A stretch of DNA of 64,000 nt from Candidatus Latescibacterota bacterium (lineage in GTDB: Bacteria; Latescibacterota; UBA2968; GCA-2709665). Shown here piece by piece: positions 38,666 to 56,308 of this stretch. The notes under the pieces were generated by a model. That model ran no database searches and was not told the DNA's origin. It saw nothing but the letters and a program-made list of their open reading frames with translations. Position numbers and translations under genes: made by a program. The stretch is from contig CBDDDZ010000005.1 of assembly GCA_965226795.1 (NCBI GenBank), positions 1,474,016-1,538,015 on the forward strand, read 5' to 3'. Positions within the stretch are counted from its first letter, which is position 1. Each line of letters begins with the position of its first letter.

Positions 38666-38748
38666 AAAATGCTTAGTACAACAACGACGTGTTCCACCTG
38701 GAGGGGGGCAGGTTAGTTTCTGATCCACACGCATGGCGGGAGTGTGCA

Positions 38749-40410
38749 ATGGCGGGCCCTTCGGACGATGAACTGGTTCGACGCTGGAAAGACGAACCCG
38801 CACCGGTGCTGCCGTTGTTGCACGCGTTCCACGAACGGGATGGATATATCACTGATGAAGCCCTCCGGTCCATCTCGGTGGGCTTGAAAACACCGCTTGC
38901 AGATCTGTTTGGCACCGTAACGTTCTACCATCACCTTTCTCGCGAGCCCGGAGGCCTGAATAAATTCCGGGTGTGTACCGGCCCGATATGCGCGCTTCGG
39001 GGCGCACAGGAATTGTGCGATGCCCTGAACGGCGTCCCAATGGCATGCGCGGGCAGGTGTGACGAACCGGTACCGGTAATTCAGAGCCATCGCGTACTCG
39101 TAGGCACGAATGCACAGTGCCTACAGGAAGTACCAACGCCACCGCCCGCGCTAAATCCAGACAACCTGGAGGAGTGTGTCTTCCGTCACATTCGCGCGCC
39201 GAACCGCGCGACCCTCGAAGGATATCGCGCGACCCACGGGTACGAAGGGTTGGAAAGAGCCACAATTAAAATGCGGCCCGTGGAGGTTATGGAACGGGTT
39301 ACAGAGAGCGGGTTGACCGGCCGAGGCGGTGCCGGCTTCCCCACAGGTGCAAAATGGAAGGCGGTTGCAGAGGCCACCGGCGATCCGAAAACGGTTGTCT
39401 GCAACGCCGATGAGGGAGAACCGGGCTGCTTCAAGGATCGAGCCTTGATGGACTACGATCCGCACGCGGTGCTGGAGGGTATGGCCATCGCCGCGTTCGC
39501 AACGGGCGCCACACGAGGGTTCATTTATCTACGGTACGAATACCCGCAGACGCTGAGCATTCTGGAAAACGCCATTGAAGAAGCGGAGGCGGCCGGATTG
39601 CTTGGCGAAGGCATTATGGGGACGGACTTCGACTTTCGAATACATATTCGGCGCGGCGGAGGGGCGTATGTGTGCGGAGAAGAGGGGTCATTGCTGAACA
39701 GCCTGGAGGGCAGGCATCCGTTTCCCAGAAACCGACCGCCGTATCCCGTTACCCACGGATTTGAGGATCTGCCCACGGCGGTAAACAATGTTGAAACGCT
39801 GGTTGCCGTACCCCAGATCCTCCGAAAGGGTGCGGACTGGTACCGGGATCTTGGGCTGAACGGTCAACCCGGCACCAAAGTAATCAGTGTGTCCGGCGAT
39901 ATCGCAAGGCCGGGGAATTACGAGGTCCCGTTCGGCTTGCGACTGAAAACACTGCTTTACGATTGGGGCGGCGGCCCCCTCGAGGGCCGGAACATCCAGG
40001 CGGTGACGATGGCGGGGTTGTCCGGCGGCTTTGTAGCGGGCGACGCATTCGAAGCCACTCTCGACGAACCCAGCCTCCGCAGCTACGGCTCTTTTCTGGG
40101 CGCCGGGGGCATCATCGTATTTGACGATACCCGGGATATGGTTGAAGTTGCCCACGGCGCAATGGCCTTTTTTGCGGACGAGTCATGCGGCAAGTGTTTT
40201 CCGTGCCGAATCGGCACGCGCCGGTTGGCCGAGAGGCTTAACGGCGCTGTCGGACCCGGTCAGGTCGGACCATGGCGGGCGGAGGTTCATGATATCGGCC
40301 AGACAATGATGGCGACCAGCGCGTGCGGCCTGGGCACGGCGGCGCCTCTGGTGACCGAGAGCCTGATGAAGTATTTTCCGAATCAGGTCGAAAGGCACGT
40401 CGAACGGTAA
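38749..40410 (+). CDS. NAD-dependent formate dehydrogenase beta subunit: fused NuoE-like [2Fe-2S] and NuoF-like (FMN/NAD, 4Fe-4S) flavoprotein
   Basis: N-terminal NuoE-like Cys pattern (CTGPICALRG...CAGRCDEP). NuoF motifs GRGGAGFPTGAKWK and ESCGKCFPCRIGT. The start is set at the internal ATG of track ORF 38689..40410. Confidence 0.85.
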   Translation: MAGPSDDELVRRWKDEPAPVLPLLHAFHERDGYITDEALRSISVGLKTPLADLFGTVTFYHHLSREPGGLNKFRVCTGPICALRGAQELCDALNGVPMACAGRCDEPVPVIQSHRVLVGTNAQCLQEVPTPPPALNPDNLEECVFRHIRAPNRATLEGYRATHGYEGLERATIKMRPVEVMERVTESGLTGRGGAGFPTGAKWKAVAEATGDPKTVVCNADEGEPGCFKDRALMDYDPHAVLEGMAIAAFATGATRGFIYLRYEYPQTLSILENAIEEAEAAGLLGEGIMGTDFDFRIHIRRGGGAYVCGEEGSLLNSLEGRHPFPRNRPPYPVTHGFEDLPTAVNNVETLVAVPQILRKGADWYRDLGLNGQPGTKVISVSGDIARPGNYEVPFGLRLKTLLYDWGGGPLEGRNIQAVTMAGLSGGFVAGDAFEATLDEPSLRSYGSFLGAGGIIVFDDTRDMVEVAHGAMAFFADESCGKCFPCRIGTRRLAERLNGAVGPGQVGPWRAEVHDIGQTMMATSACGLGTAAPLVTESLMKYFPNQVERHVER

Positions 40411-40462
40411 AGATCCGCGCCGGTGTGCGTGAGTCCCACTGACCCTATCTGGAAGGCGGGAA

Positions 40463-43204: not shown

Positions 43205-43213
43205 GGATTAAAG

Positions 43214-44044
43214 TTGAATTCAGGCATTACACAGCGAGTCGTGTCGAGGGTGAATAACGGCTGTCCGGCGCGTTCGATTCAGGACGATATCGCGATAGAA
43301 GAGCCCCTGGAAATCCGCGTGGCGGGGGATCCGGTGGCCGTCACCATGCGCTCTCCCGGAAATGACTCCCGGCTCGCCGTGGGTTTTCTGTTTTCGGAAG
43401 GGATTATCGCGTCTATCGAGGACATTGGGCGGGTATATCACTGCGGAAGGCCCGGGACAGAGGCATACGGTAATGCGATTGACGTGCTGCCCGCGCCCGG
43501 CCACAGTCTGGATATCGAGCGGGTTAGCGCCAGCCGGCGCGGCACGCTGACGACGTCTGCGTGTGGGGTATGTGGTCGACTGGGCATAGCTGACCTGGTG
43601 GAGCGTTGTTCTGTTTTGCCGCCTGGACCGAAGATATCGGCGAAATTGCTATCTGATACGATTGAAAATATGACACGGATTCAGCCCACATTCACCCACA
43701 CCGGCGGTGTGCACGCCGCCGCCGCGTTCGGCCTGGACGGCTGCGCGCTTGTATGCAGCGAAGATGTGGGCCGACACAATGCCGTGGACAAAACCGTCGG
43801 CGCACTGCTTTTCGACAGATTGGTGGGAGCGTCTCGGGGAGCCGTCGTACTGGCCGTCAGCGGCAGATCGAGCTTTGAAATCGTCCAGAAAGCGGCAGTC
43901 GCACGAATTCCTATTGTTGCAAGCGTCTCGGCCGCCAGTTCGCTGGCGGTCGATCTTGCAACCGATGTGGGTATTACTCTTGCGGGATTTGTTCGCCGGA
44001 AGGGCTTCAATCTGTACGCGCACCCTGAACGGATTGTGCCATAA
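43214..44044 (+). CDS. fdhD: Formate dehydrogenase accessory sulfurtransferase FdhD
   Basis: DDIAIEEPLEIRV..TTSACGVCG (catalytic Cys loop)..EDVGRHNAVDK. Confidence 0.9.
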   Translation: MNSGITQRVVSRVNNGCPARSIQDDIAIEEPLEIRVAGDPVAVTMRSPGNDSRLAVGFLFSEGIIASIEDIGRVYHCGRPGTEAYGNAIDVLPAPGHSLDIERVSASRRGTLTTSACGVCGRLGIADLVERCSVLPPGPKISAKLLSDTIENMTRIQPTFTHTGGVHAAAAFGLDGCALVCSEDVGRHNAVDKTVGALLFDRLVGASRGAVVLAVSGRSSFEIVQKAAVARIPIVASVSAASSLAVDLATDVGITLAGFVRRKGFNLYAHPERIVP

Positions 44045-44054
44045 GGAGTGGACG

Positions 44055-44282
44055 ATGCCTATTTTTGAGTTTATCTGCGGCAGTTGCCGTCATCCCTTCG
44101 AGATGTTCATTCAGGGCTCCCAGGAACCGCGCTGCCCATCCTGTGGCAGCAGCGAACTTGAAAAACAACTTTCGGTTTTTGCCGTAAGTGGAGGTAGCGG
44201 CCAAACGGTGGATCCCGAACCCCTGGGGCCCTGCGGAACCTGCGGAGAACCCAGAGGTCCTGGCGCCTGTTCACTGAATTAG
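44055..44282 (+). CDS. FmdB-family zinc-ribbon protein (putative regulatory protein)
   Basis: MPIFEFICGSCRHPFE...RCPSCGS...CGTCGE. CxxC pairs. AAGGAG SD 8 nt upstream of the ATG. Confidence 0.7.
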   Translation: MPIFEFICGSCRHPFEMFIQGSQEPRCPSCGSSELEKQLSVFAVSGGSGQTVDPEPLGPCGTCGEPRGPGACSLN

Positions 44283-44288
44283 GCATTG

Positions 44289-44321
44289 GATCCCGGTTGA
44301 AAACGCCGGGATCTTTTTTTT
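44289..44321 (+). terminator. Strong rho-independent terminator (GATCCCGG-ttgaaaacg-CCGGGATC plus T8)
   Basis: Perfect 8-bp GC-rich stem followed by TTTTTTTT, directly after fmdB. Confidence 0.7.
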
Positions 44322-44401
44322 GTACATGAATTGGGAATCCGAGCGAATTTTCCATTAATCCTGTCGGTTCCGCAGGTTGTTTCCTACGTGAAGAATGTGA
44401 G

Positions 44402-44570: not shown

Positions 44571-46334
44571 ATGGGCGCCGTGTTCACAAAAGCCTACCGC
44601 CGTATTCAACAATCGATTGCCGAGGATCGTTGTGTGATTCTGGATGGCGGCGTTGCCACGGAACTGGACCGGATGGGACTTCGGGATCACGCCATCAGCG
44701 ATCACACCCTCTGGGGCACCTGGGCATTGTACCATGAACCCTATTCGGTGCTGGATGTACACCGACGGTTTGTGGAGGTCGGCTGCGACGTAATTTCAAC
44801 CAATACCTGGGGGATCCTGGAAGGTTCGGAGATAGGCGGGCGAGGGCTGGCGGCAGGTGCCGGAATATCGCATTGGATGGATGTGGCGCAACGCGGTATC
44901 ACGTTGGCGCGCCGGGCAAATCAACAGGTGGGCAGGGAGGACGAATGCGCGGTGGCCTTCAGCGTAAATGGAGACATCGATACCTCTCAGCGGTTGGAAC
45001 GATTACAGCTGCTTTCAAGGGTATTTGTAGACGATCCTCCCGATCTCATCTTGATGGAAACGATGTCAATTGTCCGCGAGGATCTCACGCTTCCTGCGGT
45101 CGAACTGATGATTCAGACAGGTATTCCGGTGTGGCTGAGCTTCCGGCGCTGCAGGCAGGGTCTGTGCGGGGTGCACGGGCAGCACTGGGGGGGTCCCGAA
45201 GGAGATTATTTTGGCAGATTGGCTGCCCGTTTCGAACGAATGGAAATTGGGGCCCTTTTGATCAACTGTCTGCCGGTGGAGCACGTGTCCGGGATGATAT
45301 CGTGGCTGAGGGATTTTACCGATCTTCCACTGGGCGTGTACCCGAACCTGGGGCGTTACCTGGACCCGGGTTGGAAATTCGACGAAACCGTGGGGCCGCG
45401 ATGCTTTGCCGCGTTGGCCGAGGCCTGGCGCGAAGAGGGGGCGCAGATCGTCGGCGGGTGCTGTGGTGTCACGCCCGATCACATTGCTCAAGCCAGAGAG
45501 GCGCTGGCGTGTACCCGGGCGGGCCGTAAGCGAGTCCAGCCTCGTATATTAGCGGGGGGCGGAACCAATTGTGAAGATGGGGTCGTTCCGTGTCCATGGG
45601 TAGACGAGAACATGCGGTCGCTCTTTCCGCTGCCATTTCCTGAAATTGTGTGCGATCCGGGGGTGTTCGCTCCAACGCAGGGGAGCTTTTTGATCTGGAA
45701 GCATCTCTTTCGAACGGGCGCCGGCCAAGGCAAACGCTGCCTGGATGTCGGTTGCGGCACCGGAATCCTGTCCGTGCAACTCGCGTTGAACGGCGCTGCG
45801 CATGTCGTGGCAATCGATATCCAGAAAGAAGCCGTCGGCAATACGATGACGAACGCTTTTCGAAACGGCGTGGCAGATCGCATTTACGGACGGGTTGCGG
45901 ATCTCTATACCTTTGTACCGGAAGACAGGTATGACCTGGTCATCGGCAGTCTTTATCAGATGCCGGTGGATCCGATCCGGCAGACAACCGGACACCGTAC
46001 CGCCGATTTCTGGGGGAGGAATCTTCTCGATCACCTGATTGGGCTGCTGCCGCAGATGCTGGCCGACCACGGTGTCGCCTATCTGATGCAGATTTCGGCT
46101 TTGAGTCAGATTCAAACGTCCGATCTGATTTCGGACTCGGGACTGGACGCGACGGTAATAGACTTCAGCTTTTTTCATTTCAGCCCGGTATTTGACGAAA
46201 ATATCGATCAGATCCGGCGGGTCTCCGAGTTGTCCGATGCCTTTCACCTGAGTTTTGGTCAGGACAACGTGATGGTGATGTACCTGCTGGAACTAAAGTT
46301 CGGCGCAGGCAATCCTTTAGATAGTCCGGTTTGA
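44571..46334 (+). CDS. Fusion protein: homocysteine S-methyltransferase (Pfam S-methyl_trans) domain plus class I SAM-dependent methyltransferase domain
   Basis: N-domain: RCVILDGGVATELDRMGL ... VGGCCGVTPDHI (zinc/Hcy-binding GGCCG). C-domain: KRCLDVGCGTGILSV (motif I), VVAIDI (motif II), LVIGSLYQMP. The start is at an internal ATG with a GGGGAG SD; the 80-aa upstream extension in the track ORF is non-protein-like. Confidence 0.7.
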   Translation: MGAVFTKAYRRIQQSIAEDRCVILDGGVATELDRMGLRDHAISDHTLWGTWALYHEPYSVLDVHRRFVEVGCDVISTNTWGILEGSEIGGRGLAAGAGISHWMDVAQRGITLARRANQQVGREDECAVAFSVNGDIDTSQRLERLQLLSRVFVDDPPDLILMETMSIVREDLTLPAVELMIQTGIPVWLSFRRCRQGLCGVHGQHWGGPEGDYFGRLAARFERMEIGALLINCLPVEHVSGMISWLRDFTDLPLGVYPNLGRYLDPGWKFDETVGPRCFAALAEAWREEGAQIVGGCCGVTPDHIAQAREALACTRAGRKRVQPRILAGGGTNCEDGVVPCPWVDENMRSLFPLPFPEIVCDPGVFAPTQGSFLIWKHLFRTGAGQGKRCLDVGCGTGILSVQLALNGAAHVVAIDIQKEAVGNTMTNAFRNGVADRIYGRVADLYTFVPEDRYDLVIGSLYQMPVDPIRQTTGHRTADFWGRNLLDHLIGLLPQMLADHGVAYLMQISALSQIQTSDLISDSGLDATVIDFSFFHFSPVFDENIDQIRRVSELSDAFHLSFGQDNVMVMYLLELKFGAGNPLDSPV

Positions 46335-46468: not shown

Positions 46469-47288
46469 ATGGTCGATCAATTTCTGAAGGGACGGGCCGC
46501 GATCGTTACAGGAGGCGCCAGTGGACTCGGCAGTGCCATTGCATTGCGCGGGTGCGGACATCTGCATCATGTCCCTGAGCAGCCGCCGCGTGAAACGCGT
46601 GGACAGCGAGGTAAAATACTTCGAGGACGTCGACGAGATCGAGACAACACGGCAGGAAATCCAGGAATTGGGCGTGCGGTGCATCGGTCTGGACGGGGAC
46701 GTCAGTTCGGAGGCGGACGTGGAGGACATGATCGGCCAGACCGTCAGGACCTTCGGCAGGTTGGATATTCTGGTAAACAACGCCGCGACAAACGTGATAC
46801 ATCCAATCCTCAACCACGACAACCACGCCTGGAGACGCGTGGTGGACGTCAATCTGTTCGGACCCTACCTGTGTACCCGGAACGCACTGCCCCATATGAT
46901 CGAAAACGGTTGGGGACGAATCGTCTCTATCGGTTCTACCAATTCCCACGTCGGGTCGTCCAGTTACAGTGCTTACGCGGCGTCCAAGCACGGGTTGTTG
47001 GGGTTCAACAGATCAATCGCACTGGAGGTGGCGGCCCACCACATTACGGCCAATACCGTCAGCCCGGCAACGATCGAGACACCGTCCGGTCAACTGCATT
47101 TGCTGCGGTGGGTGGAAGACCGGGGTCTTTCATGCGAAGCCATGAGAGAGGAGTTCATAAAATCCTATCCGCAGGGCAGATTCCTGCGCCCCGAGGAAAT
47201 CGCCGATCTGGTAGTCTATCTGTGCCGGGAACAAGCGCAGGGAATCAACGGGGAAGATATCCGTGTTACAACGGGTGCGATGTACTAG
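46469..47288 (+). CDS. SDR-family oxidoreductase, interrupted by an apparent 1-nt indel near 46548
   Basis: The Rossmann motif KGRAAIVTGGASGLGSAIALR is in the frame of track ORF 46424. The remainder (LVNNAATN...; S...YSAYAASKHGL catalytic Tyr/Lys) is in track ORF 46521..47288. Removing one G from the GGG at about 46550 gives ...SAIALRGADICIMSL... Confidence 0.7.
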
Positions 47289-47378: not shown

Positions 47379-48161
47379 ATGGATCTGGGATTGAAAGGCC
47401 GTCGGGCGCTGGTGACAGGCGCGAGCAAGGGCATTGGCAGGGCAATTGCATTTGAACTGGCAACGGAAGGCGCCGATCTTGCAATCTGCTCCCGCGGGTC
47501 GCGCGCTCTTGAGGATACGGCGGAAGCGCTTGAGGCGGCAACGGGCGTAAACGTCTTCGCAGCCACCGCAGATGTAACGGTCGACAGGGAGGTCCGGGCG
47601 TTCATGGAGCAGGCCGCCGCCGCGCTGGGCGGGCTGGATATTCTCGTGAACAACGCCGGCAGTGCGCTTCCCGGAACCTTCGAAGAGGTGGACGAGGTTC
47701 GCTGGCGTGCGGATCTGGACGTGAAGCTGTTTGCCGCGATGCGATGCGCGCGTACCGCCCTGCCTTTTCTGAAACAGAGCCCGCAGGCGAGAATTATCAA
47801 TATCAACTCGATCGTCGGACGTCAGATTGCGCCGGAATACATCGCCAACAGCACCGATCGGGCCGCCTGTCTGGCGTTCAGCAAAGGCCTTTCGGACAAC
47901 CTGGCACAATACGGAATTCTCGTAAACAGTGTGAATCCCGGCAACGTGAAGAGCCAGGCCTGGGGCAGCACATTGGACTATTTCGCACCGGACGCGGAAC
48001 TCGAGGACTATTATGCACAGGCAAGCCGGGAAACACCGCTGGGCAGGGTGGCGGAAGCAGATGAGATTGCGGCCGTGGTGACGTTTCTCGCAAGCAAACG
48101 GGCGAGCTATATAACCGGAGCCTCCATCGACGTGGACGGCGGATTGGTCAGGTACATTTAA
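47379..48161 (+). CDS. SDR-family oxidoreductase (3-oxoacyl-ACP reductase-like)
   Basis: LKGRRALVTGASKGIGRAIA ... NNAG ... YITGASIDVDGG. Confidence 0.85.
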   Translation: MDLGLKGRRALVTGASKGIGRAIAFELATEGADLAICSRGSRALEDTAEALEAATGVNVFAATADVTVDREVRAFMEQAAAALGGLDILVNNAGSALPGTFEEVDEVRWRADLDVKLFAAMRCARTALPFLKQSPQARIININSIVGRQIAPEYIANSTDRAACLAFSKGLSDNLAQYGILVNSVNPGNVKSQAWGSTLDYFAPDAELEDYYAQASRETPLGRVAEADEIAAVVTFLASKRASYITGASIDVDGGLVRYI

Positions 48162-48374
48162 GCGGTGGACAGGCCGGGCTGGATCGAATCTGTGGGTCCA
48201 GGTTCGACGGCAAAAGATCCTCTGTTGCAGATATTGCGACAAATCGGACTTGACGTCGCGCTGTGTCGCCAGGCGCGCGAATGTAACCTGTCACACGGGT
48301 TCATTCGGCAATGACGCACGCGTTCAGTCGTTCCGCTAAGTCGGCAAGATTTCCCGCACCGAAGGTAAATTGCA

Positions 48375-50632
48375 TTGTCCAATCCTCGTTTCGAAAAATT
48401 GTCGCCCGTACCCGGCCTGGGGCTGGAGGGCTATACCGACGAAGTAACCCTGCCGGCCGGAGCAGAGATCGGTTTCAAATTGGGTGGTCCTCCCGGCACG
48501 GCTGATGTGAACCTCGCGCGGCTGATTCACGGAGACCCAAATCCCGACGGACCGGGTTACAAGGAAGAACCTGTCTCATGGGGGCAGCCGGATCGGATTG
48601 ACGTGCAAGATCAGGTTACGGATTATGGTTCATTCATTGAGATTCCGCACTCCGATACCCTGAATCCGGCGGGTGCGTTTACCGTGGCGCTCTGGTTTCT
48701 GCCAACTCTAGGTGGCGGCGGATGGCGCGCCCTGACGGTGAAGTGGGCGTGTCAAAACTTGAGCTACGGGATTTTTTTCGCCGGCGAGCGGTTTCTGACG
48801 GCTGCGGTGTCTCACGACGGCAAGACGGCACACTGGGCAACCGCCAGAGAGGCCATCCATGTCGGCAACTGGCAGTTCGTGGCGTTCTCGTACCAACCTG
48901 AATCAGGTAACATCTGTCTTTATCAGCAAATTGGGGATACCGCCGGGGTGGTCGAAACCCGATCGTCCTCCGACGCGCTGAGTTTTGCATCGAAAAACAT
49001 CGAGAAGGGTCCGGTGTTCCCGGGCACCGCGCCGCTGCTGTTCGGCGCCTGCCCGGAACCCGACCGCGAAGGCATCCATTGGGCCCATTTTACGGGAAAA
49101 ATCGCGCACCCCGTGCTTTTTGAAACTGCACTCGATCGCGAAGATATCCAGGCACTCGCGGGCGGACGGAATCCTTCAACACTGGGCCCACTGCTGGGAT
49201 GCTGGCATCTTGGCCGCGAGGTGACGGGCGCCCGTGTCGTTGATCTGTCCGACAACGGGAATCACGGGCTTGCCTTAAACGCGCCGGGGCGTGCGGTTAC
49301 TGGACCGTTCTGGACGGGGGAATGCCGTCCCGGCTCTATACGGATCAACCTGACGATTACAATGCGGTCTACCTGCACGAAGACGATCTGGAAGATGCAG
49401 AATGGGCAACGTCTTTCGCGGTGGAAGTACCTCCCGACACCAGGCCCGGCATCTATACACTACGCGCCGAGACAGATGCTGAAACACTCTTCGTGCCGTT
49501 TATCGTGACATCCAGGACGCCGCGGTCGGAATTGGCATGCCAGATCCCCACGCTCACGTGGCAGGCGTACCGAAGCAACCGTGCCGCGTACAGCAATACC
49601 GAAGACGGTGTGCTGGATCGTACGATATGCACTTACGACGTGCATAGCGACGGGTCGACGGTTTACTATTACTCGCGCCTTCAGCCAACGCGCGGATGGA
49701 ATCCCACTGCGGGATTTCAGAACTGGGGCGCGCACAATATTACCGCGAATCTCTACCTGATCGACTGGCTGGACGCGCTGGAGTTCAAATACGATGTCTT
49801 TGCGGACGAGGATCTGCATTGCGGGGGCACCGAGCTTCTTTCTAAATATCGATGTGTGATTCTGGGAAGCCACCCCGAATACCACACCGAAAACATGGTC
49901 GACAGCCTGGCGGCGTACGTGCGAAACGGGGGCCGTCTCGTCTATTTGAGCGGTAATGGCCTGTACTGGGTGATGTCCATCGACCCCCGGCGGCCCCATC
50001 TGCTTGAACTGCGCCGGGGAGGAGAGGGCGACTACGGACCCACGTACGAGCCGGTGCCCGGGGAATCGCAACACAGCACGACACTGGAACTCGGGGGATT
50101 ATGGGCGAGGCGGGGACGCCCGCCCCGACGGACGGTCGGCGTTGAACATGCGTCCAACGCCTGGATGGAAGCGGAAGATAAAAGGGGCTTTCGGCGACTT
50201 CCGTCAAGCAGGGACGCCAGGTACGCGTGGGTTTTCGACGGTGTCGGAAATGACGAAGTTATCGGAGACTTCGGCCTGAACCTGGGCAGCGCTGCAGGCT
50301 TTGAAATGGACGCCGTGCAGGATTGGGCGTGGGACCGGCTCACGCCCGAACCCGTCGTACTCGCCCGGGCGGCCTGTCCCGGATTTATCCCCGCCCGACG
50401 TACGCACGTACCGCCTACGGCGGATCTGGCGATTATGGATTATCCCGGAGGCGGCGCGGTTTTTTCGGCAGGCTCCGTAACCTGGACGGGCAGCCTCTCA
50501 CACAACGGCTATACCAATAACGTCTCCTCCATCACCCGCAACGTAATTCGCCGATTTCTGGATACGCCGGCTGGCGGGACGGTACTTGGAGACGCCGGCC
50601 TACCAACGCTGGTGAATACTTCTTCCAAATAA
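48375..50632 (+). CDS. N,N-dimethylformamidase beta (large) subunit-family protein: N-terminal ConA-like/LamG domain plus C-terminal DMFase-beta-like domain. Split by a 1-nt indel in a G-run at 49316..49320
   Basis: Track ORFs 48375..49508 and 49322..50632 overlap in different frames. G5 to G6 yields a continuous ...GPFWTGGMPSRLYTDQPDDYNAVYLHED... The C-domain motif ...VILGSHPEYHTENMVDSLAAYVRNGGRLVYLSGNGLYWV... is as I recall it for this family. The family assignment is from memory, not a search. Confidence 0.6.
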
Positions 50633-50636
50633 ACAA

Positions 50637-51731
50637 TTGCGGCACACCGGAGATCCCATTCAGATGGACGCCGGAAAGTCGGTATATCCCCGAAGTCTGT
50701 TGCAGCGCCTCGACGAAGACGGCGTGATATGCGCTGAGGGGTATTTGTTCGAACTCGAACGCCGAGGGTATCTGCAGGCGGGCCCTTTCGTGCCGGAAGT
50801 CGTGCTTGAGCACCCGGAAGTCGTGGCCGGGTTGCATCGGGAATTCTGGCGCGCGGGTTCGGACGTGATTGAGGCGTTTACGTACTACGCCCATCGAGAA
50901 AAGCTACGCATCATCGGCAAGGAACATCTTCTGGAACCCCTGCAGAAGAGTGCGCTGGGGATAGCGAAATCGGTCGCCGAATCGGTCGAAGGAGAACGCC
51001 CTCTGGTTGCAGGCAACATTTGCAATACCAACATCTGGGATCCGGAGGATCGGGCAACGGACGCGCAGGTTACGGCGATGTTCGACGAACAGGTGGCGTG
51101 GGCGGCTGAGGCGGGAGTCGATTTCATGATCGCGGAGACGTTCTCCTTTTCCGGGGAGGCCGCACTGGCACTGGCATCTATCAAACGGGCTGGAATAACG
51201 GCTGTGGTGACCTTTGCGCACCATCGGGAGGAAGGATTGAGGGACGGAGTCCTGCTGGATGAGGCCGCAAAACGTCTGGAGCAGGCCGGCGCGGATGTAG
51301 TCGGGGTAAATTGCACCAGAGGACCACAAACGATGCTGCCCGATGTGGAACGTATCCGGCGTGCCATATCCTGTCACGTGGCGGCATTGCCGGTACCGTA
51401 TCGCACGACGGAGGATCAACCGACGTTTCAATCACTTCGGGAGGCGGGCAATGAACCGTCGCCTGAGGGACGTTCGTTTCCGACAGCGTTGGATCCCTTT
51501 ACCTGCCACAGGTATGAAATGGCCGCGTTTGCACGTCGGGCGTTCGATATGGGTGTCCGGTACCTCGGCGTCTGCTGCGGGTCCGGGCCTCATCACGTCA
51601 GATCAATTGCGGAAGCGTTGGGACGAATCCCGCCCGCCCGCCGTTACTCTCCGGACATGTCCAGGCACTACGCGCTGGGCAGCGATTCCAGCCTCAAGGG
51701 CCACAATCGGGAATTTGTCGAAAAGCTGTGA
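50637..51731 (+). CDS. Betaine-homocysteine S-methyltransferase-like (homocysteine S-methyltransferase family) protein
   Basis: GYLFELERRGYLQAGPFVPEVVLEHPEVVAGLHREFWRAGSDVIEAFTYYA ... GVNCT ... YLGVCCGSGPHHVRSIAEALGR. Closely parallels the BHMT N-terminal and zinc-site blocks. Confidence 0.8.
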   Translation: MRHTGDPIQMDAGKSVYPRSLLQRLDEDGVICAEGYLFELERRGYLQAGPFVPEVVLEHPEVVAGLHREFWRAGSDVIEAFTYYAHREKLRIIGKEHLLEPLQKSALGIAKSVAESVEGERPLVAGNICNTNIWDPEDRATDAQVTAMFDEQVAWAAEAGVDFMIAETFSFSGEAALALASIKRAGITAVVTFAHHREEGLRDGVLLDEAAKRLEQAGADVVGVNCTRGPQTMLPDVERIRRAISCHVAALPVPYRTTEDQPTFQSLREAGNEPSPEGRSFPTALDPFTCHRYEMAAFARRAFDMGVRYLGVCCGSGPHHVRSIAEALGRIPPARRYSPDMSRHYALGSDSSLKGHNREFVEKL

Positions 51732-51885
51732 GATATCCCGTGGCCACTCCGTATCGGCAATAGTGTTTTTCCGCAGTCGGCCAGTGTCCCGGAGGGTGAA
51801 GGCGACCGGGTCGAAACTGGCGGCGAACCCACCGGCGGGACAAGAATCAACTTGATTTTGGAATCGACCCGGAGCGTTCACGTCG

Positions 51886-53487
51886 ATGCGATCCTGCGCG
51901 CTGGCTATCGCGGAAACTATACAGGAAGAAGGGGTCCGGTACGTATTCGGTCATCCGGGCGGCGAGGTCGTGGATCTGATCGATGCGCTGGAGAACACGG
52001 GAATCCGATTCGTGCTGACCGGCCACGAGGCCGCCGCCGCCTTTATGGCCAGCGCGATCGGGCGCCTGACGGGGATTCCCGGCGTCTGCCTGGAGACGCT
52101 GGGGCCGGGCGCCTGCAATCTGGTTCTGGGGGTCGGCGCCGCTTACCTCGACAGGGATCCGATGCTGGCTATATCAGCGCGAAGCCCGGCGTCGCGGACG
52201 AGAGTGAGCCAGAAACAGAATCTGTCTCTCAACGAATTGTTCCACCCGATCTGTAAATGGTCCGTCGCGCTGGAAAAGACCGGCGTCGAAGCGACGGTGC
52301 GGTCCGCCTTGATGCGTGCGTCGGCGCCTCCGGCTGGTCCGGTATACCTCACGATACCGAATGATGTCGCTGTGGCCGATGCGGCGCCCGGCCCGGCCGA
52401 GTCTCCGTCCACCCCGTTTCTCGCGTGCAACGGGGACCTTGAAGCGATAACAAGGGCACTGAACCGGGCCGAACGGCCTGTTGGCATTGTGGGCGTCGCG
52501 TTGAATGCCCGGCTGGATTTCGCCGCAGTGCGTCGATTTTTTGCACAATCGCAAATTCCCTACGTTGTTCTTCCACAGGCAAAGGGCATTCCGGATGAGT
52601 TTGGCCCGGGGTATCTGGGCACGGTGGCGTCGGCCGCGGGAGACGCAGTTCTTGTGAATATGATCGAGCGAAGCGATTGTCTGTTAGGCGTGGGTTTCGA
52701 ACCCGTGGAGTCGGCCCAGGACTGGCATCTTCGCCAACCAGTCTACTCCCTGGCCAATTCCTCTATTGCCTTTGGCGACTTTGAACCGGTTTCGGAGTGT
52801 GTGGGCGACGTCACATCCCTGCTCGATCGGCTGCTGGAAGGATATAGCGGGGGCGCACGCTGGACCACGGCCGAAATCCGCGGCGCACAGGATGCCGTCG
52901 CGGTTACGATCTGTCCTGAAGCGGACGCCAGCGCCAATGGTCTATCTCCTTACCATTTAATGTGTGAATTGTACGATACCCTGCCAGGGGAGACCATACT
53001 TTCAGTCGACGTCGGCGCCCACAAGATGCTGATTTCGCAGGTCTGGCTGGCCCGTTCGCCGGGAACGTTTCTGACGTCAAACGGCCTTTCCGCGATGGGC
53101 TACGGCCTGCCGTCTGCGATGGCGGCGGCGCTGGTCCGGCCCGGCCGGCCGGTGGTGGGCGTATTTGGGGACGCCGGTTTTTCCATGATGGTTCAGGAAC
53201 TGGAAACGGCACGCAGGTTGGGCCTGCATCCATTGCTCGTGGTGCTCTGCGACCGGTCTCTGACAATTGTAAAAGTCGCACAAGCCATGCGTAATATCCC
53301 GCAACGGGGCGTAGCGTTGCAAACGGTGGATTGGGCAAAGGTCGCCGATGGGTTCGGTGCAAGGGGAGTGACTGTGACCACCCTGCGTGGAGTGCGGAGG
53401 GTGGTGGAGGAGTGGCTGGCAAATCCCCAGTTGACGGTAGTGGCTGCGCGGGTGGACGAGAAATTATACACAGCGCTGGAATATTGA
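51886..53487 (+). CDS. Thiamine-pyrophosphate-dependent enzyme (acetolactate synthase large-subunit-like)
   Basis: N-terminal Pyr domain (VRYVFGHPGGEVVDLIDAL), central domain, C-terminal PP domain (GDAGFSMMVQELETA). Confidence 0.8.
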   Translation: MRSCALAIAETIQEEGVRYVFGHPGGEVVDLIDALENTGIRFVLTGHEAAAAFMASAIGRLTGIPGVCLETLGPGACNLVLGVGAAYLDRDPMLAISARSPASRTRVSQKQNLSLNELFHPICKWSVALEKTGVEATVRSALMRASAPPAGPVYLTIPNDVAVADAAPGPAESPSTPFLACNGDLEAITRALNRAERPVGIVGVALNARLDFAAVRRFFAQSQIPYVVLPQAKGIPDEFGPGYLGTVASAAGDAVLVNMIERSDCLLGVGFEPVESAQDWHLRQPVYSLANSSIAFGDFEPVSECVGDVTSLLDRLLEGYSGGARWTTAEIRGAQDAVAVTICPEADASANGLSPYHLMCELYDTLPGETILSVDVGAHKMLISQVWLARSPGTFLTSNGLSAMGYGLPSAMAAALVRPGRPVVGVFGDAGFSMMVQELETARRLGLHPLLVVLCDRSLTIVKVAQAMRNIPQRGVALQTVDWAKVADGFGARGVTVTTLRGVRRVVEEWLANPQLTVVAARVDEKLYTALEY

Positions 53488-53523
53488 GATTCCGAAGCGT
53501 TCCGCCGCCGTAACGACCGGGAT

Positions 53524-54879
53524 GTGAATGTCAGGAAACACATGAGTTTACCGGAACACGTGGAATATCTGATCATCGGCGCAGGTGTGCACGGTCTGAG
53601 CACGGGTTACCACCTGGCGCGTGAGTTGAAAAGGCGGCGTCGGGGAGGCGGGTCTGACGTGCTGGTTGTGGACAAGACGGGGGTGGCAGCGGGCGCTTCC
53701 GGCATTGCCTGCGGCGTGATCCGTAACAACTATTACCAACCGGCCATGCGCGAACTGATGGCACACAGCGTCGATATATGGGAGACCGACCCGGAGGCAT
53801 TCAGCTATCACCCCGTCGGCTATATGCAGATCAGCCCCGAGTCCATGCACGACGACGTTGCAAGCATCGCTCAAGAGCAGGGTGAGATCGGTTACGAATC
53901 CGAATTTATCGAAGGAGAAGCAGACTGCATGAAATATATGCGGGGTCTGTTTCACGACTGGCAGGCGAAGGGAATCACATCCGTTCTTCACGAAAAAAGA
54001 GGGGGATATGCCAACAACCGTACGTCCATGATGGGCCTGGCGGCCAAGGCCAGGAGCGAAGGCGTCGGGATTCTGGAAGGCGTTTCGGTGACCGGATTTC
54101 GGTACGATGACGGGGCAATATCGGCGGTGGAAACGGGTCGCGGCGTGATCCGGGTAGACGAGGTTGTTATTGCCGTGGGGCCGTGGGCGAAGTTGCTCTG
54201 GGATATGTTGAACCTGCCCGCGTCGATGAGCATCAAGGGTTCGGATGGCGCCATGCATCACGACATTCCCATGTGGAGCTACTGGTGTTTGCAGGAAGGG
54301 ACGCTGGGCGTGGATCCCAACTATCTCAAAACCAACGACGGCAGGATGCCCCCCGTAATTCATCTGGACACGGACGCGCCACTGTATTCGGACGTCGACG
54401 GTTCGCTGATTACGGATCGCCTGTGGGGTATATACTACAAACCCGATTTCCACTTTGGGGGCGTGCAGGGAGGGGCAATGCCCTACCGGGTGGAAAGACC
54501 GCCGGACGAAGTTGCGGTGGACCCCTATGGTCCGGAATCTCTCGATTTCATCGTTGGTGACCAATTCGCGCACCAGTGGTGTTCCGCGCTGGCATTCTGT
54601 CATAAGCGGTTTGAAGGAAAGTCTCCACTCTTCAAGAAAGAGCCATCCGGTGGCATCGGCGCGTTTACACCCGATCGTTTCCCGGTGTTCGACCGGTTTC
54701 ACAAGAATTGTTACCTCATTGCAGATTCCAACCACGGGTACAAGATGATTGGCGTGGGGAAGCTGGTGGCGGAGGAACTCCTGGGCGAACGCTCCCGTGT
54801 CCTGGAGCCGTTCCGTTTTTCACGTTTTGTTGAGGGCATGCTGCACCCGGTATCCAGCAGCCCGTTTCCATGGAGCTGA
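53524..54879 (+). CDS. FAD-dependent oxidoreductase (DAO family; sarcosine/N-methyl-amino-acid oxidase beta-like)
   Basis: YLIIGAGVHGLSTGYHLARE (GxGxxG dinucleotide fold). 451 aa. Confidence 0.75.
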   Translation: MNVRKHMSLPEHVEYLIIGAGVHGLSTGYHLARELKRRRRGGGSDVLVVDKTGVAAGASGIACGVIRNNYYQPAMRELMAHSVDIWETDPEAFSYHPVGYMQISPESMHDDVASIAQEQGEIGYESEFIEGEADCMKYMRGLFHDWQAKGITSVLHEKRGGYANNRTSMMGLAAKARSEGVGILEGVSVTGFRYDDGAISAVETGRGVIRVDEVVIAVGPWAKLLWDMLNLPASMSIKGSDGAMHHDIPMWSYWCLQEGTLGVDPNYLKTNDGRMPPVIHLDTDAPLYSDVDGSLITDRLWGIYYKPDFHFGGVQGGAMPYRVERPPDEVAVDPYGPESLDFIVGDQFAHQWCSALAFCHKRFEGKSPLFKKEPSGGIGAFTPDRFPVFDRFHKNCYLIADSNHGYKMIGVGKLVAEELLGERSRVLEPFRFSRFVEGMLHPVSSSPFPWS

Positions 54880-55060
54880 GGCTCGAACGCAAGCGTCTGG
54901 GCACCATGATGCCAGGACCGTCCATAGAGCGCTGACGAGTTTATCCGGCCCAGTGATGTCGGAGTACCAGCCGCTTTGTCGAGACCCGGTTCCTGCATTT
55001 CGCGGCTGCGAAATGGAAATCAATAGGGCAGCTCCCTACACACAGTGAGAGAGTGCATCG

Positions 55061-56308
55061 ATGCAATATCCCGACGTCCGGCGACGCATGCGGATTCGGC
55101 ACACGGATTGGGGAGACGCTGTACGTATCGACCTCAATCAACTCGGCGCACGGTTGCCGTCGCGTGGAATGCAGGGCGCGACATGGTCGGAAACAAACAG
55201 TGAGGCATTGCGGGACGAATGGTCGGAATCCCAGAACGAGGCGCTTTGCGACACGTTGACGGAGGTCGCCGCCGGATTGGGCGGAAGCTTCGATTCGTTT
55301 GCCGAGTGGACGGTTTTGCACAACAAGCGGTACGACGGCACCCACATGCGCGATGTGCGGCGAGCGCGGTTCAGCAGGGGGTACCGCGCGGCGATCACGA
55401 CGCTCGGCTGGGCGCATCCGAAGACGGGACTTTCCACGTGTATTCAGGCTGTGGGTTATGTGCCGAAACCCCGCGCGATGTTCGAGCAGGCCTCGTGGAG
55501 GCCGGAATCACTGTACGATACCGAGTTTATGGCGCTTGCGCCTGCCGTGGTGACAAGATTCGGAGGTGGTCGGCAGATCCACTTGTCGGGCGTCGTCGCG
55601 TGGGACGACGCGATAAATCCGCTATTCGAAGGACAGCCGGAACGTCAGATTTCGCACGTGTTCGACCTCATCCAGAACGTATTCCACGAGGCCGGCGGAT
55701 CGCTGACGGACGTTGTGCGTCTCCGTCCGTTCGCTCACTCCACGAGGATTGCGCAACTCATCCGGACGGAGGTCAGCCGCCGCTGGGCGGACCATCCGCG
55801 GCCCGTGGTGATGATGTCGGACAGCCGGCGCTTCGGCGACCCGCCCAGCCTGTATGCGGAAATACAGGTCATGGGGGTCATGCCGGACAGCCATTGTGAA
55901 GTGCGCCACTCGGAAATGGAACTTCCTGCAGGAATTACGGATGAGGGCCTCACCCGTATTCGCTGCAGCCGGGCTCGAGATTGGGAACTGATCCACGTGG
56001 GCGAACTGCGCGCGCGCCCGGGCGCGGGTCCGAACCAGGAAGCCGAGCAGGTCACCGAACAGATGGCAGCGGTCCTTGACCGGGCGTCGCTCACGCGGAG
56101 CGATATCTGTTTGACATTTGCCTATGTCAGTTCACCGGAAACTGCCGCAGCGTTCTCGGAAGCCGTGTCCCAGGCGGTGCCGGTGGACACTGTGCACGTG
56201 TTGCCCTGTCCGACAATGCCTGAACTGGAGGGTCGCCGAATCAAGGTGGAGATGACGGCCAGAAAATGCCTGGTGCCGGTCTCGAAGACGGTTTCCGGGG
56301 GTCCATGA
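55061..56308 (+). CDS. Tandem RidA/YjgF-like (reactive intermediate/imine deaminase fold) protein
   Basis: Two segments with a RidA-like pattern: IHLSGVVAWDD...QISHVFDLIQNVFHEAGGSLTDVVRLRPF, and a second ...EQVTEQMAAVLDRASLTRSDICLTFAYV... Moderate similarity only. Confidence 0.5.
   Translation: MQYPDVRRRMRIRHTDWGDAVRIDLNQLGARLPSRGMQGATWSETNSEALRDEWSESQNEALCDTLTEVAAGLGGSFDSFAEWTVLHNKRYDGTHMRDVRRARFSRGYRAAITTLGWAHPKTGLSTCIQAVGYVPKPRAMFEQASWRPESLYDTEFMALAPAVVTRFGGGRQIHLSGVVAWDDAINPLFEGQPERQISHVFDLIQNVFHEAGGSLTDVVRLRPFAHSTRIAQLIRTEVSRRWADHPRPVVMMSDSRRFGDPPSLYAEIQVMGVMPDSHCEVRHSEMELPAGITDEGLTRIRCSRARDWELIHVGELRARPGAGPNQEAEQVTEQMAAVLDRASLTRSDICLTFAYVSSPETAAAFSEAVSQAVPVDTVHVLPCPTMPELEGRRIKVEMTARKCLVPVSKTVSGGP

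What the first reader, a model, noticed from the sequence alone, without database searches (positions are those of the whole stretch)
48375..56308. Candidate methylated-amine / one-carbon catabolic island adjacent to the formate dehydrogenase operon
Consecutive same-strand genes:
- N,N-dimethylformamidase beta-subunit-like protein (DMF gives dimethylamine plus formate in the characterised enzyme)
- a BHMT-like homocysteine S-methyltransferase
- a TPP-dependent enzyme
- a sarcosine-oxidase-beta-like FAD oxidoreductase
- a tandem RidA protein (imine deaminases typically partner with amine/amino-acid oxidases)

A second homocysteine-methyltransferase-family protein (fused to a SAM-MTase) and two SDRs lie 2-6 kb upstream, next to a formate dehydrogenase operon that could oxidise the formate released. 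The combination suggests degradation of N-methylated compounds (betaine/dimethylglycine/sarcosine-like or formamide-like substrates), with methyl groups transferred to homocysteine. Only the DMFase and BHMT family functions are established; the pathway assembly is inference.
Basis: inference. Interest (0 to 1): 0.6.

Follow-up and report, generated by a model that had tools for sequence, protein, structure and literature searches.

The report
Decaying methylated-amine/amide catabolic gene cluster
A Latescibacterota genome carries a gene cluster, shared in part with two other phyla, that probably breaks down an unidentified N-methylated, amide-containing compound. Two of its core genes are broken here, and its closeness to formate dehydrogenase looks incidental.

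Summary
The genes exist and the family assignments hold: a DMFase-beta-like amidase, a BHMT-like methyltransferase, an ALS-like TPP enzyme, a DAO-family flavoenzyme and a tandem Rid protein.

Two corrections to the observation:
- 48375..50632 is not one ORF. A GGGGG run at 49316-49320 shifts the frame. An otherwise identical intact 751-aa allele has GGG there.
- The first SDR (46469..47288) carries a 10-11 bp frameshifting deletion.

Conservation:
- SDR-SDR-amidase-TPP recurs in Latescibacterota, Bryobacterales-type and Acidiferrobacteraceae-type loci.
- BHMT-like and DAO join it in the first two. An MttB-family methyltransferase is present in the third.
- Formate dehydrogenase, the HcyMT/SAM-MTase fusion and the Rid protein are neighbours only in Latescibacterota. 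A terminator-like hairpin ends the FDH operon.

Evidence on function:
- The non-Latescibacterota loci add acid-sugar-dehydratase-like, isochorismatase-like and PhyH genes plus transporters. The substrate is therefore more complex than glycine betaine or DMF.
- Homologues of the DAO at 74-77% identity lie beside gmaS-mgsABC in four of four contexts sampled. This supports N-methylamine chemistry.
- The amidase keeps the DMFase catalytic residues, lacks a small subunit, and is nearly as close to an N-acetyl-beta-phenylalanine acylase.

Verdict: partly supported. The cluster is uncharacterised and is decaying in this genome.

The parts
38689..44300 (+). Formate dehydrogenase operon, judged a neighbour and not part of the cluster. 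It comprises a NuoF-like subunit (38689-40410), FdhA (40463-43204) with an in-frame UGA at 41555-41557, FdhD (43214-44044) and a Zn-ribbon gene (44055-44300).
   Evidence: ORFs and read-through translation 'NCSRA*HAPTV'. Pfam labels of the orthologous genes in L002. tblastn of L002 proteins against the window. FDH is absent from the Bryobacterales-type and Acidiferrobacteraceae-type loci.
44288..44324 (+). Terminator-like hairpin (10 pairs, 6 G-C) followed by TTTTTTT, at the end of the Zn-ribbon gene. It marks the end of the FDH transcription unit.
   Evidence: It is the strongest site in 43900-57400 and lies in the gap before the next gene. The total number of terminator-like sites in the region does not exceed the shuffle expectation.
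44571..46334 (+). Fusion protein: Hcy S-methyltransferase domain (PF02574) plus class-I SAM methyltransferase domain. It is a neighbour of the cluster only in Latescibacterota.
   Evidence: Pfam. Gene call of 587 aa in L170. Full-length fused homologues at 54-56% identity exist. Not found at the Bryobacterales-type or Acidiferrobacteraceae-type loci.
46469..47288 (+). SDR1, a 3-hydroxybutyrate-dehydrogenase-like short-chain dehydrogenase. It is a pseudogene here: a 10-11 bp deletion at about 46549 puts the N-terminal Rossmann motif out of frame.
   Evidence: tblastn gives two frames, with residues 1-27 in frame 2 and 32-276 in frame 3. DNA alignment with L002, L005, L006 and L084. L170 and L171 carry a 10-bp form that is also out of frame.
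47379..48161 (+). SDR2, a short-chain dehydrogenase. It is intact and is a core partner, 69-77% identical across phyla.
48375..50632 (+). DMFase-large-subunit-family amidohydrolase (LamG domain plus DMFA2_C), split by a frameshift into ORFs 48375-49508 and 49322-50632.
   Evidence: Pfam. Orthologue P0001 against PDB 6lvb (E 1.5e-89) and 8huy (E 8e-81). The catalytic residues Y/Y/E/H/N are conserved. Intact 751-aa orthologues exist.
49316..49320 (+). G5 run that causes the frameshift. The intact allele has G3.
   Evidence: The window, L001, L170 and L171 have GGGGG. L168 and L169 (JGI 3300064085) have GGG and encode P0247, which is otherwise identical.
50664..51731 (+). BHMT-like homocysteine S-methyltransferase (HcyMT2), intact.
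   Evidence: Pfam and NCBIfam. PDB: rat and human BHMT at 188 and 184 bits over the full length, with the Zn cysteines and E159 conserved. It belongs to a large family 63-78% identical across phyla.
51886..53487 (+). ThDP-dependent enzyme of the acetolactate-synthase-like family, intact. It is a core partner, 51-56% identical across phyla.
53542..54879 (+). FAD-dependent amine oxidoreductase of the DAO family, intact. Its close homologues sit in methylated-amine / N-methylglutamate gene clusters.
55061..56308 (+). 415-aa protein with an unassigned N-terminal region and two divergent Rid/YjgF-like domains. It is found next to the cluster only in Latescibacterota.
   Evidence: Pfam PF01042, 52 bits in two stretches. 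PDB RutC at 25 bits. The domain alignment lacks Arg at the E. coli RidA R105 position. Absent from the other phyla's loci.

Best explanation
The region 46.4-54.9 kb is the Latescibacterota version of an uncharacterised catabolic gene cluster. Parts of it appear to move between phyla.

Its core is two SDRs, an ALS-like ThDP enzyme and an amidohydrolase of the DMFase large-subunit family that keeps the Fe(III) ligands. In two phyla a demethylation pair is attached: a BHMT-like methyltransferase and a DAO-family flavoenzyme of the type found in methylamine / N-methylglutamate clusters.

Proposed mechanism (inferred, not shown):
1. The amidase removes an N-acyl or N-formyl group, or releases a methylated amine, from an amide-containing substrate.
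2. The BHMT-like enzyme passes a methyl group from an onium centre (quaternary ammonium or sulfonium) to homocysteine.
3. The flavoenzyme removes remaining N-methyl or N-alkyl groups oxidatively as an aldehyde.
4. The two SDRs oxidise hydroxyl groups to a hydroxy-ketone or diketone.
5. The ThDP enzyme cleaves or decarboxylates that product.

The substrate is unknown. It is probably a hydroxylated, N-methylated, N-acylated small molecule, not glycine betaine or DMF.

In the window's strain the carbon-skeleton module is decaying: SDR1 and the amidase are frameshifted. The methyltransferase, ThDP enzyme, flavoenzyme and Rid protein are intact.

The FDH operon is a separate, lineage-specific neighbour.
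For: - Family assignments.
- Catalytic residues of DMFase (Y399, Y440, E521, H519, N547; PMC7686228) align with Y398, Y420, E501, H499 and N527 of orthologue P0001. Four are invariant in A1 and A3. N527 is invariant in A3 and nearly invariant in A1.
- Cross-phylum synteny. Latescibacterota L002-L006 and L084 have the full order. Bryobacterales-type L008, L086, L087 and L162 have MR_MLE-SDR1-SDR2-isochorismatase-PhyH-EamA-TPP-DMFA-MFS-HcyMT2-DAO. Acidiferrobacteraceae-type L009 and L089 have SDR1-SDR2-isochorismatase-PhyH-DMFA next to SDR-TPP-MR_MLE-SDR-MttB; L101 starts at DMFA and holds only that second block. L109 has SDR1-SDR2-isochorismatase-DMFA.
- No DMFA homologue of 52% identity or less among the 158 loci fetched carries a SDR1, SDR2, TPP or DAO orthologue. 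One (L040) has a distant HcyMT2 homologue at 45% identity, 7 kb away.
- DAO homologues at 74-77% identity sit beside gmaS-mgsABC, tdm, FTHFS and mgd genes in 4 of 4 sampled contexts.
- The window's DAO and HcyMT2 are no closer to the Bryobacterales cluster copies (68-71%) than to copies in other contexts (68-77%). This suggests independent recruitment to the cluster.
- Transporters (MFS, EamA) lie inside the Bryobacterales-type cluster.
- Pseudogene lesions occur in several independent records.
- A terminator-like site follows the FDH operon.
Against: - No enzyme reaches an equivalog cut-off, so every substrate assignment is inference.
- The Latescibacterota version lacks the MR_MLE, isochorismatase and PhyH genes, so the different versions may not act on the same compound.
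- HcyMT2 and DAO belong to very large, slowly evolving families found in many other contexts. Their presence could reflect a general methyl/C1 function and not a step of this pathway.
- No literature on this cluster was found.
- Mobile elements sit in or next to several copies, so some juxtapositions may be accidental.
- Two lesions in the window mean no function can be claimed for this genome.
Confidence: 0.5

Rival explanations
1. The island degrades glycine betaine, dimethylglycine, sarcosine or DMF-type formamides. BHMT takes the first methyl group, the SoxB-like oxidase and RidA handle the rest, the DMFase-like enzyme releases formate, and the adjacent FDH oxidises it.
For: - BHMT-like similarity: 188 bits to animal BHMT. 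JGI names family members betaine-homocysteine S-methyltransferase.
- A 68%-identical homologue lies near DMGDH-like and creatinase-like genes in L166.
- The DAO family is tied to N-methylamine clusters.
- The DMFase catalytic residues are kept.
- FDH adjacency is conserved in five Latescibacterota species.
Against: - FDH is absent from the Bryobacterales-type and Acidiferrobacteraceae-type loci and is separated by a terminator-like site.
- There is no DMFase small-subunit gene, and the Paracoccus large subunit is inactive without it.
- The protein is almost as similar to an N-acetyl-beta-phenylalanine acylase.
- The conserved partners (two SDRs, a ThDP enzyme, acid-sugar-dehydratase-like, isochorismatase-like and PhyH genes) have no role in betaine or DMF catabolism.
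- The RidA-like gene is lineage-specific and appears to lack the catalytic Arg.
- There are no SoxADG or GcvT-type partners.
Confidence: 0.15
2. There is no single pathway. The region juxtaposes independent modules: a BHMT-like + DAO methyl/C1 module, an ALS-like + two-SDR acyloin/diol module, and a stand-alone amidase. They are kept together by co-transfer and not by shared chemistry.
For: - HcyMT2 and DAO occur in many unrelated contexts.
- The Acidiferrobacteraceae-type loci have the SDR/TPP/amidase genes without HcyMT2 or DAO.
- L007 has amidase, HcyMT2 and DAO without SDR or TPP.
- Transposases or integrases sit in or beside L002, L007 and L008.
- In the window only the SDR1 and amidase genes have decayed.
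- The SDR and TPP proteins score best against acetoin / butanediol / catabolic ALS models, all below cut-off.
Against: - The association is strict in one direction. Only the amidase subclade at about 55% identity or more has these partners.
- The HcyMT2 and DAO copies in the two phyla look independently recruited.
- A non-homologous methyltransferase (MttB family) appears in the third lineage.
- Genes are tightly spaced on one strand: 32-55 bp between amidase and HcyMT2 and between TPP and DAO here, and 0-70 bp in L008 and L162.
Confidence: 0.25
3. The two 'pseudogenes' are assembly or sequencing artefacts, and the cluster is fully functional in this genome.
For: - Both lesions touch G-rich runs.
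- The window differs from L170 and L171 by one G at the SDR1 site.
- Another assembly (L003/L004) shows a split in the fusion gene.
- Apart from the frameshift, the amidase is as conserved as its neighbours, at 86-90% against L002.
Against: - The G5 allele is present in four records built by different pipelines: the window, NCBI GCA_047517765.1 (L001) and Logan ERR14231557 and ERR14231558.
- JGI also holds split products on a 6,280-nt contig, alongside an intact allele on a 6,278-nt contig.
- The SDR1 lesion is a 10-11 bp deletion, not a homopolymer miscount, and is out of frame in both forms.
Confidence: 0.08

Closest known systems
N,N-dimethylformamidase (DmfA1A2, Paracoccus; PDB 6LVB/6LVC/6LVV)
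   Same: Same family and domain layout as the large subunit (LamG-like domain plus DMFA2_C). Orthologue P0001 aligns over 725 residues, E 1.5e-89. The Fe(III) ligands Y399, Y440 and E521 and the essential H519 and N547 are all conserved.
   Different: About one third identical by inspection of the alignment. There is no small-subunit gene next to it in any of the three phyla, whereas the Paracoccus large subunit alone is inactive. The genomic partners differ. The gene is frameshifted in the window.
N-acetyl-(R)-beta-phenylalanine acylase (PDB 8HUY/8I59/8I5A)
   Same: Same family, with nearly the same similarity (E 8e-81 over residues 16-730). In the PDB it is listed as a single molecule entity with no second subunit. 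It shows that the family hydrolyses N-acyl amino compounds and not only formamides.
   Different: The substrate pocket was not compared. Nothing suggests a beta-phenylalanine-related context here.
Betaine-homocysteine S-methyltransferase (animal BHMT; PDB 1LT7/1LT8/1UMY)
   Same: Full-length similarity of 184-188 bits, far above MetH at 74 bits. The Zn-binding Cys triad and E159 are conserved.
   Different: It lacks the C-terminal oligomerisation region (355 against 406 aa). The positions equivalent to W44 and Y160 are F and T here, and are F/V/H and T/R across the family. The role of those two residues in betaine binding is recalled from memory. It scores below the bacterial BHMT equivalog cut-off, 85 of 338. 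The methyl donor is unresolved: a betaine or a sulfonium such as S-methylmethionine.
N-methylglutamate pathway / methylated-amine clusters (gmaS, mgsABC, mgdABCD, tdm)
   Same: The DAO-family flavoenzyme is 74-77% identical to proteins encoded directly beside gmaS-mgsABC in four sampled genomes.
   Different: The window has no gmaS, mgs, mgd or tdm genes. The biochemical role of this DAO family in those clusters is itself not established: MgdA/SoxB-like genes are present separately in L174 and L176.
Heterotetrameric sarcosine oxidase beta subunit (SoxB, TIGR01373)
   Same: It shares the FAD-binding half of the DAO fold. SoxB chains (and the related 1y56_B chain) are the best-scoring solved relatives, at 46-61 bits.
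   Different: Only residues 9-235 align. It scores 77 bits against a cut-off of 529. There are no SoxA, SoxD or SoxG partners.

Membership tests
N,N-dimethylformamidase (EC 3.5.1.56) | Large (beta) subunit homology: DMFA2_C domain with an N-terminal LamG-like domain. | tested here: met
   PF20254 at 233 bits and PF13385 at 41 bits. P0001 against 6lvb, E 1.5e-89.
N,N-dimethylformamidase (EC 3.5.1.56) | 2-Tyr-1-Glu Fe(III) site plus the essential His and Asn. | tested here: met
   Y398, Y420, E501, H499 and N527 of P0001 align with Y399, Y440, E521, H519 and N547. Four are invariant in A1 and A3; N527 is invariant in A3 and nearly invariant in A1. The same motifs are present in the window's C-terminal ORF.
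N,N-dimethylformamidase (EC 3.5.1.56) | A small (alpha, about 15 kDa) subunit gene next to the large-subunit gene. It is required for activity in Paracoccus. | tested here: not met
   No ORF fits. The gap is 214 bp upstream and 32 bp downstream in the window. The gene abuts the TPP or PhyH gene in L008, L009 and L162. The requirement is stated in PMC7686228.
N,N-dimethylformamidase (EC 3.5.1.56) | An intact reading frame. | tested here: not met
   Frameshift at 49316-49320.
N,N-dimethylformamidase (EC 3.5.1.56) | Hydrolysis of DMF to dimethylamine plus formate. | not testable with these tools
   This needs an enzyme assay of an intact orthologue such as P0247 or P0001.
Betaine-homocysteine S-methyltransferase (EC 2.1.1.5) | Pfam S-methyl_trans barrel with the Zn-binding Cys triad. 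| tested here: met
   PF02574 at 139 bits. GVNC and VCCG align with BHMT C217, C299 and C300.
Betaine-homocysteine S-methyltransferase (EC 2.1.1.5) | Closer to BHMT than to other Hcy methyltransferases. | tested here: met
   BHMT at 184-188 bits against MetH at 74 bits or less among solved structures.
Betaine-homocysteine S-methyltransferase (EC 2.1.1.5) | Reaches the curated equivalog score (NF005718). | tested here: not met
   85 bits against a cut-off of 338.
Betaine-homocysteine S-methyltransferase (EC 2.1.1.5) | Betaine-pocket residues (human W44, Y160; roles recalled from memory). | tested here: inconclusive
   These positions are F and T in the window, and vary (F/V/H and T/R) across the family. 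No paper in the library could be found to confirm the residue roles.
Sarcosine oxidase beta subunit (SoxB) | Full-length SoxB similarity with SoxA, SoxD and SoxG partners. | tested here: not met
   TIGR01373 at 77 bits of 529, matching residues 13-219 only. No Sox partner genes are in the window.
RidA imine deaminase | YjgF/Rid fold. | tested here: met
   PF01042 at 52 bits in two stretches. This is weak: RutC scores 25 bits.
RidA imine deaminase | The catalytic Arg (E. coli R105) and the curated RidA score. | tested here: not met
   TIGR00004 at 22 bits of 106. There is no Arg at the aligned position in either domain.
N-methylglutamate / methylated-amine catabolic cluster | gmaS, mgsABC and mgd (or tdm) genes in the locus. 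| tested here: not met
   None is in the window. Only the DAO family is shared.

The most novel reading that the evidence does not exclude
This subclade of small-subunit-free, DMFase-family Fe(III) amidases is the entry enzyme of an undescribed pathway for a natural N-methylated amide or betaine-type metabolite. That would give the DMFase family, known only from a synthetic solvent and an unnatural acyl-amino acid, a natural substrate.

The attached 445-aa DAO family, which also sits beside gmaS, mgs and tdm in many genomes, would be an unrecognised N-methylamine oxidoreductase. It could be the dimethylamine-oxidising step missing from degraders that lack dmmDABC.
Probability: 0.15. Interest if true: 0.7.

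Novelty: new variant of a known kind. Interest (0 to 1): 0.4.

Why it matters

A subclade with strictly conserved partners in three phyla gives a concrete, testable context for finding that role. The partners are two SDRs, a ThDP enzyme, a BHMT-like or MttB-type methyltransferase, and a flavoenzyme of the methylamine regulon.

The DAO family is highly conserved, abundant, and linked to gmaS-mgsABC and tdm. It may bear on the reported gap in marine methylated-amine degradation, where dmmDABC is missing from many degraders (PMC5520151).

For the window itself the practical message is a caution. Two core genes are inactivated, so metabolic reconstructions should not credit this genome with the pathway or with DMF or formamide use.

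Tried and rejected
- **Exact look-up of the TPP protein:** not on record.
- **Literature:** searches on DMFase homologues or clusters, DMFase with homocysteine or betaine, N-methylglutamate dehydrogenase with gmaS, and BHMT residue roles found nothing on this cluster.
- **AlphaFold2 of the DAO:** a 21-sequence alignment gave mean pLDDT 53. Only the FAD domain was confident, so no fold search was run.
- **PLSDB plasmids:** tblastn of DAO and HcyMT2 found no close homologues.
- **Programmed frameshift in the amidase:** rejected, because orthologues and an otherwise identical allele are in frame.
- **Homopolymer sequencing error:** rejected for the amidase and for SDR1, see the rival explanation.
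- **Taurine / N-methyltaurine with the TPP enzyme as Xsc:** rejected. The best models are ALS-type, and no Xsc model is among the top 25.
- **The window's own MR_MLE gene (10093-11196) as the missing cluster dehydratase:** it gave no hit at 35% identity or more to the cluster MR_MLE proteins.
- **Compositional island:** rejected. GC is 0.58-0.60 in the region, within the window's range.
- **General FDH link:** beyond the Latescibacterota orthologues, only L015 has a close FdhA (73%). It lies about 7 kb from a 36% paralogue of the amidase, which is too weak to count.

Full report
**1. What is in the sequence**

The window is from a Candidatus Latescibacterota genome. Orthologous loci at 82-92% protein identity come from MAGs of that phylum. 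Exact products of window genes lie on a 3.1-Mb contig and in GCA_047517765.1.

On the + strand, from 38.7 to 61.8 kb, the genes are as follows:
- An FDH operon. It has a NuoF-like gene, FdhA with an in-frame UGA at 41555-41557, FdhD and a small Zn-ribbon gene.
- A fusion of a Hcy-methyltransferase domain with a class-I SAM methyltransferase (44571-46334).
- SDR1 (46469-47288) and SDR2 (47379-48161).
- A LamG + DMFA2_C protein (48375-50632).
- An S-methyl_trans protein, here called HcyMT2 (50664-51731).
- An ALS-like ThDP enzyme (51886-53487).
- A DAO-family flavoprotein (53542-54879).
- A 415-aa protein with two weak Rid domains (55061-56308).
- An ABC ATPase, a 1128-aa membrane protein and an HlyD-like protein.

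No protein reaches an NCBIfam equivalog cut-off.

**2. Two genes are broken**

The 'DMFase-like' gene is two overlapping ORFs.
- Relatives read TTCTGGAAAGGAATG where the window reads TTCTGGACGGGGGAATG.
- The decisive comparison is with an allele that is otherwise identical. JGI contigs L168 and L169 have ACGGGAATG and encode an intact 751-aa protein (P0247).
- The window, L001 (an NCBI MAG) and two Logan assemblies (L170, L171) have ACGGGGGAATG and encode fragments of 377 aa plus 375 or 436 aa.
- JGI also holds the split products on a 6,280-nt contig, two bases longer than the intact 6,278-nt contig.

SDR1 carries an 11-bp deletion relative to four relatives. In L170 and L171 the deletion is 10 bp. 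In both forms the GGASGLG Rossmann motif is out of frame with the remaining residues.

The other eleven genes compared with L002 are collinear and in frame. I conclude that these are real, recent inactivating lesions. The amidase lesion is polymorphic.

**3. Conservation of the neighbourhood**

I fetched 80 genome loci and 78 metagenome loci around homologues of the amidase. I then searched them with the window's proteins and with partner proteins found on the way.
- **Latescibacterota** (L002-L006, L084): the whole order is kept, from FDH to the membrane protein.
- **Bryobacterales-type** (L008, L086, L087, and L162/L163; amidase 59-62% identical): MR_MLE, SDR1, SDR2, isochorismatase-like, PhyH, EamA, TPP, amidase, MFS, HcyMT2, DAO.
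- **Acidiferrobacteraceae-type** (L009, L089, and the truncated L101; 55-56%): MR_MLE, SDR1, SDR2, isochorismatase-like, PhyH, amidase. On the other strand lie SDR, TPP, MR_MLE, SDR and an MttB-family methyltransferase at 624 bits. L101 begins at the amidase, so it holds only the second block.
- **L109** (60%): SDR1, SDR2, isochorismatase-like, amidase.
- **Homologues at 52% identity or less:** none has an SDR1, SDR2, TPP or DAO orthologue. One (L040) has a 45%-identical HcyMT2 homologue 7 kb away.

The core association is therefore SDR1-SDR2-amidase-TPP. HcyMT2 and DAO are attached in two phyla. FDH, the HcyMT/SAM-MTase fusion and the Rid protein are Latescibacterota-only neighbours.

A canonical-looking terminator (10-bp stem followed by T7) sits at 44288-44324, right after the Zn-ribbon gene.

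Mobile-element genes lie in or beside several copies. L002 has a DDE transposase between the two SDRs. L008 has an IS91-type transposase and an integrase. L007 has a DDE_3 transposase, and there the cluster is broken up.

**4. What the individual enzymes look like**

*Amidase.*
- Orthologue P0001 matches the DMFase large subunit (6lvb, E 1.5e-89). It matches an N-acetyl-(R)-beta-phenylalanine acylase almost as well (8huy, E 8e-81).
- The DMFase Fe ligands Y399, Y440 and E521 and the essential H519 and N547 (PMC7686228) are all conserved.
- No small-subunit gene is present in any phylum, although the Paracoccus large subunit alone is inactive.
- It is thus a metallo-amidohydrolase of this family, and its substrate cannot be read from homology.

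*HcyMT2.*
- Its best solved relatives are rat and human BHMT, at 188 and 184 bits over the full length. The Zn cysteines and E159 are kept. MetH scores 74 bits.
- The family is very large and 63-78% identical across phyla, and it occurs in varied contexts.
- One context (L166) has DMGDH-like and creatinase-like genes and a different TPP enzyme next door.

*DAO.*
- Only the FAD half resembles SoxB-type enzymes.
- The family is huge and 72-77% identical across phyla.
- In four of four contexts sampled outside the amidase cluster it lies directly beside gmaS and mgsABC. Tdm, FTHFS, Amt, an ACAD-like plus flavin-reductase pair, and SoxB/D/A-like mgd genes are nearby. This is the strongest support for N-methylamine chemistry.

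*Recruitment.* The window's DAO and HcyMT2 are no closer to the Bryobacterales cluster copies (68-71%) than to copies from other contexts (68-77%). This suggests the pair was recruited to the amidase cluster more than once.

*Other proteins.*
- The MR_MLE proteins resemble acid-sugar dehydratases, below cut-off.
- The ThDP enzyme is closest to catabolic ALS.
- The Rid protein is divergent, and in my alignment it lacks Arg at the RidA R105 position in both domains.

**5. Mechanism**

*Shown:* family membership, conserved catalytic residues, the synteny pattern and the lesions.

*Inferred:*
- The cluster catabolises a small molecule that carries an amide, one or more N-methyl (or onium methyl) groups, and hydroxyl groups.
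- The amidase deacylates it or releases an amine.
- The BHMT-like enzyme (or MttB in Acidiferrobacteraceae) takes an onium methyl group.
- The DAO enzyme oxidises the remaining N-alkyl bond.
- The SDRs and the ThDP enzyme oxidise and cleave the carbon skeleton. The logic is that of diol to acyloin followed by ThDP-dependent lyase or decarboxylase action.
- In the window strain the skeleton module has decayed while the methyl module is intact. This fits the idea that the two modules are separable.

I hold this at about 0.5. The main rival is that the modules are merely co-transferred.

**6. Comparison with the known, and novelty**

The region is not a DMFase operon: there is no small subunit, the partners differ, and the gene is a pseudogene. 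It is not a Sox or NMG cluster. Its BHMT membership is only partly met.

I found no description of this cluster.

It is a new variant of a familiar kind, a catabolic cluster built from known enzyme families. It is of moderate interest because it offers a handle on the natural function of the DMFase family, and of an abundant DAO family linked to methylamine clusters, in a field with a reported missing dimethylamine step (PMC5520151).

As a feature of this particular window it is a decaying copy, and the proposed formate link to FDH is not supported.

Noticed in passing
window 40463-43204 (UGA at 41555-41557; hairpin 41569-41587): FdhA has an in-frame UGA in the motif NCSRA-U-HAPT, the usual Sec/Cys position. 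Eleven nucleotides after the UGA there is a 7-bp hairpin with a GGUCU loop (GGUUGCC-GGUCU-GGCAGCC), which looks like a bacterial SECIS element. Orthologous genes in L002 and L003 are also called as two ORFs at this point. The fold of the 64-nt stretch is no better than shuffles (z = 0.23).
   Followed up: partly
window 44571-46334: This is a fusion of a Hcy S-methyltransferase domain with a class-I (PrmA/MTS-like) SAM methyltransferase domain. Full-length fused homologues exist (P0372 and P0373, 54-56% identity, about 595 aa). There are 205 representatives at E below 1e-30. The function is unknown. In L003 and L004 the gene is split into 229 and 353 aa.
   Followed up: partly
L172 8001-9341; L173 8001-9341; L174/L175 8001-9344; L176 10001-11338: A 445-447-aa DAO-family protein, 74-77% identical to the window's, lies beside gmaS-mgsABC in four genomes. 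In L173 and L176 it is accompanied by Tdm, FTHFS and an ACAD-like plus flavin-reductase pair, with no dmmDABC in view. It may be an uncharacterised step of methylated-amine catabolism.
   Followed up: partly
L009 17039-18589 (- strand); also L089 and L101: An MttB-superfamily methyltransferase scores 624 bits to PF06253 but is below the pyrrolysine-type TMA methyltransferase cut-off. It sits in the Acidiferrobacteraceae-type loci, where no BHMT-like gene is found within the stretch held.
   Followed up: partly
L002 7482-8825 (- strand); L008 16755-18829; L007 8825-9910: Transposase and integrase genes lie inside or beside the cluster in relatives. L002 has a DDE transposase between SDR1 and SDR2. 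L008 has an IS91-type transposase plus a tyrosine recombinase. L007 has a DDE_3 transposase, a truncated MFS gene and a dispersed cluster.
   Followed up: no
window 23917-31094: Two very large proteins (728 and 1626 aa) carry lamin-tail, cohesin, dockerin and He_PIG domains. These are cellulosome-like surface modules in a Latescibacterota genome.
   Followed up: no
window 56426-61827: Downstream of the Rid gene lie an ABC ATPase (DrrA/GldA-like), a 1128-aa membrane protein (ABC2_membrane_3 and Golvesin_C hits in orthologues) with a Gly/Arg-rich C-terminal tail, and an HlyD-like adaptor. They are conserved only in Latescibacterota and are probably an unrelated export system.
   Followed up: no
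L166 10001-12765: In an Acidiferrobacterales MAG, a 68%-identical HcyMT2 homologue is immediately followed by a different ThDP enzyme, only 25% identical to the window's. Adjacency of a BHMT-like gene to a ThDP-enzyme gene thus recurs with non-orthologous ThDP enzymes.
   Followed up: no
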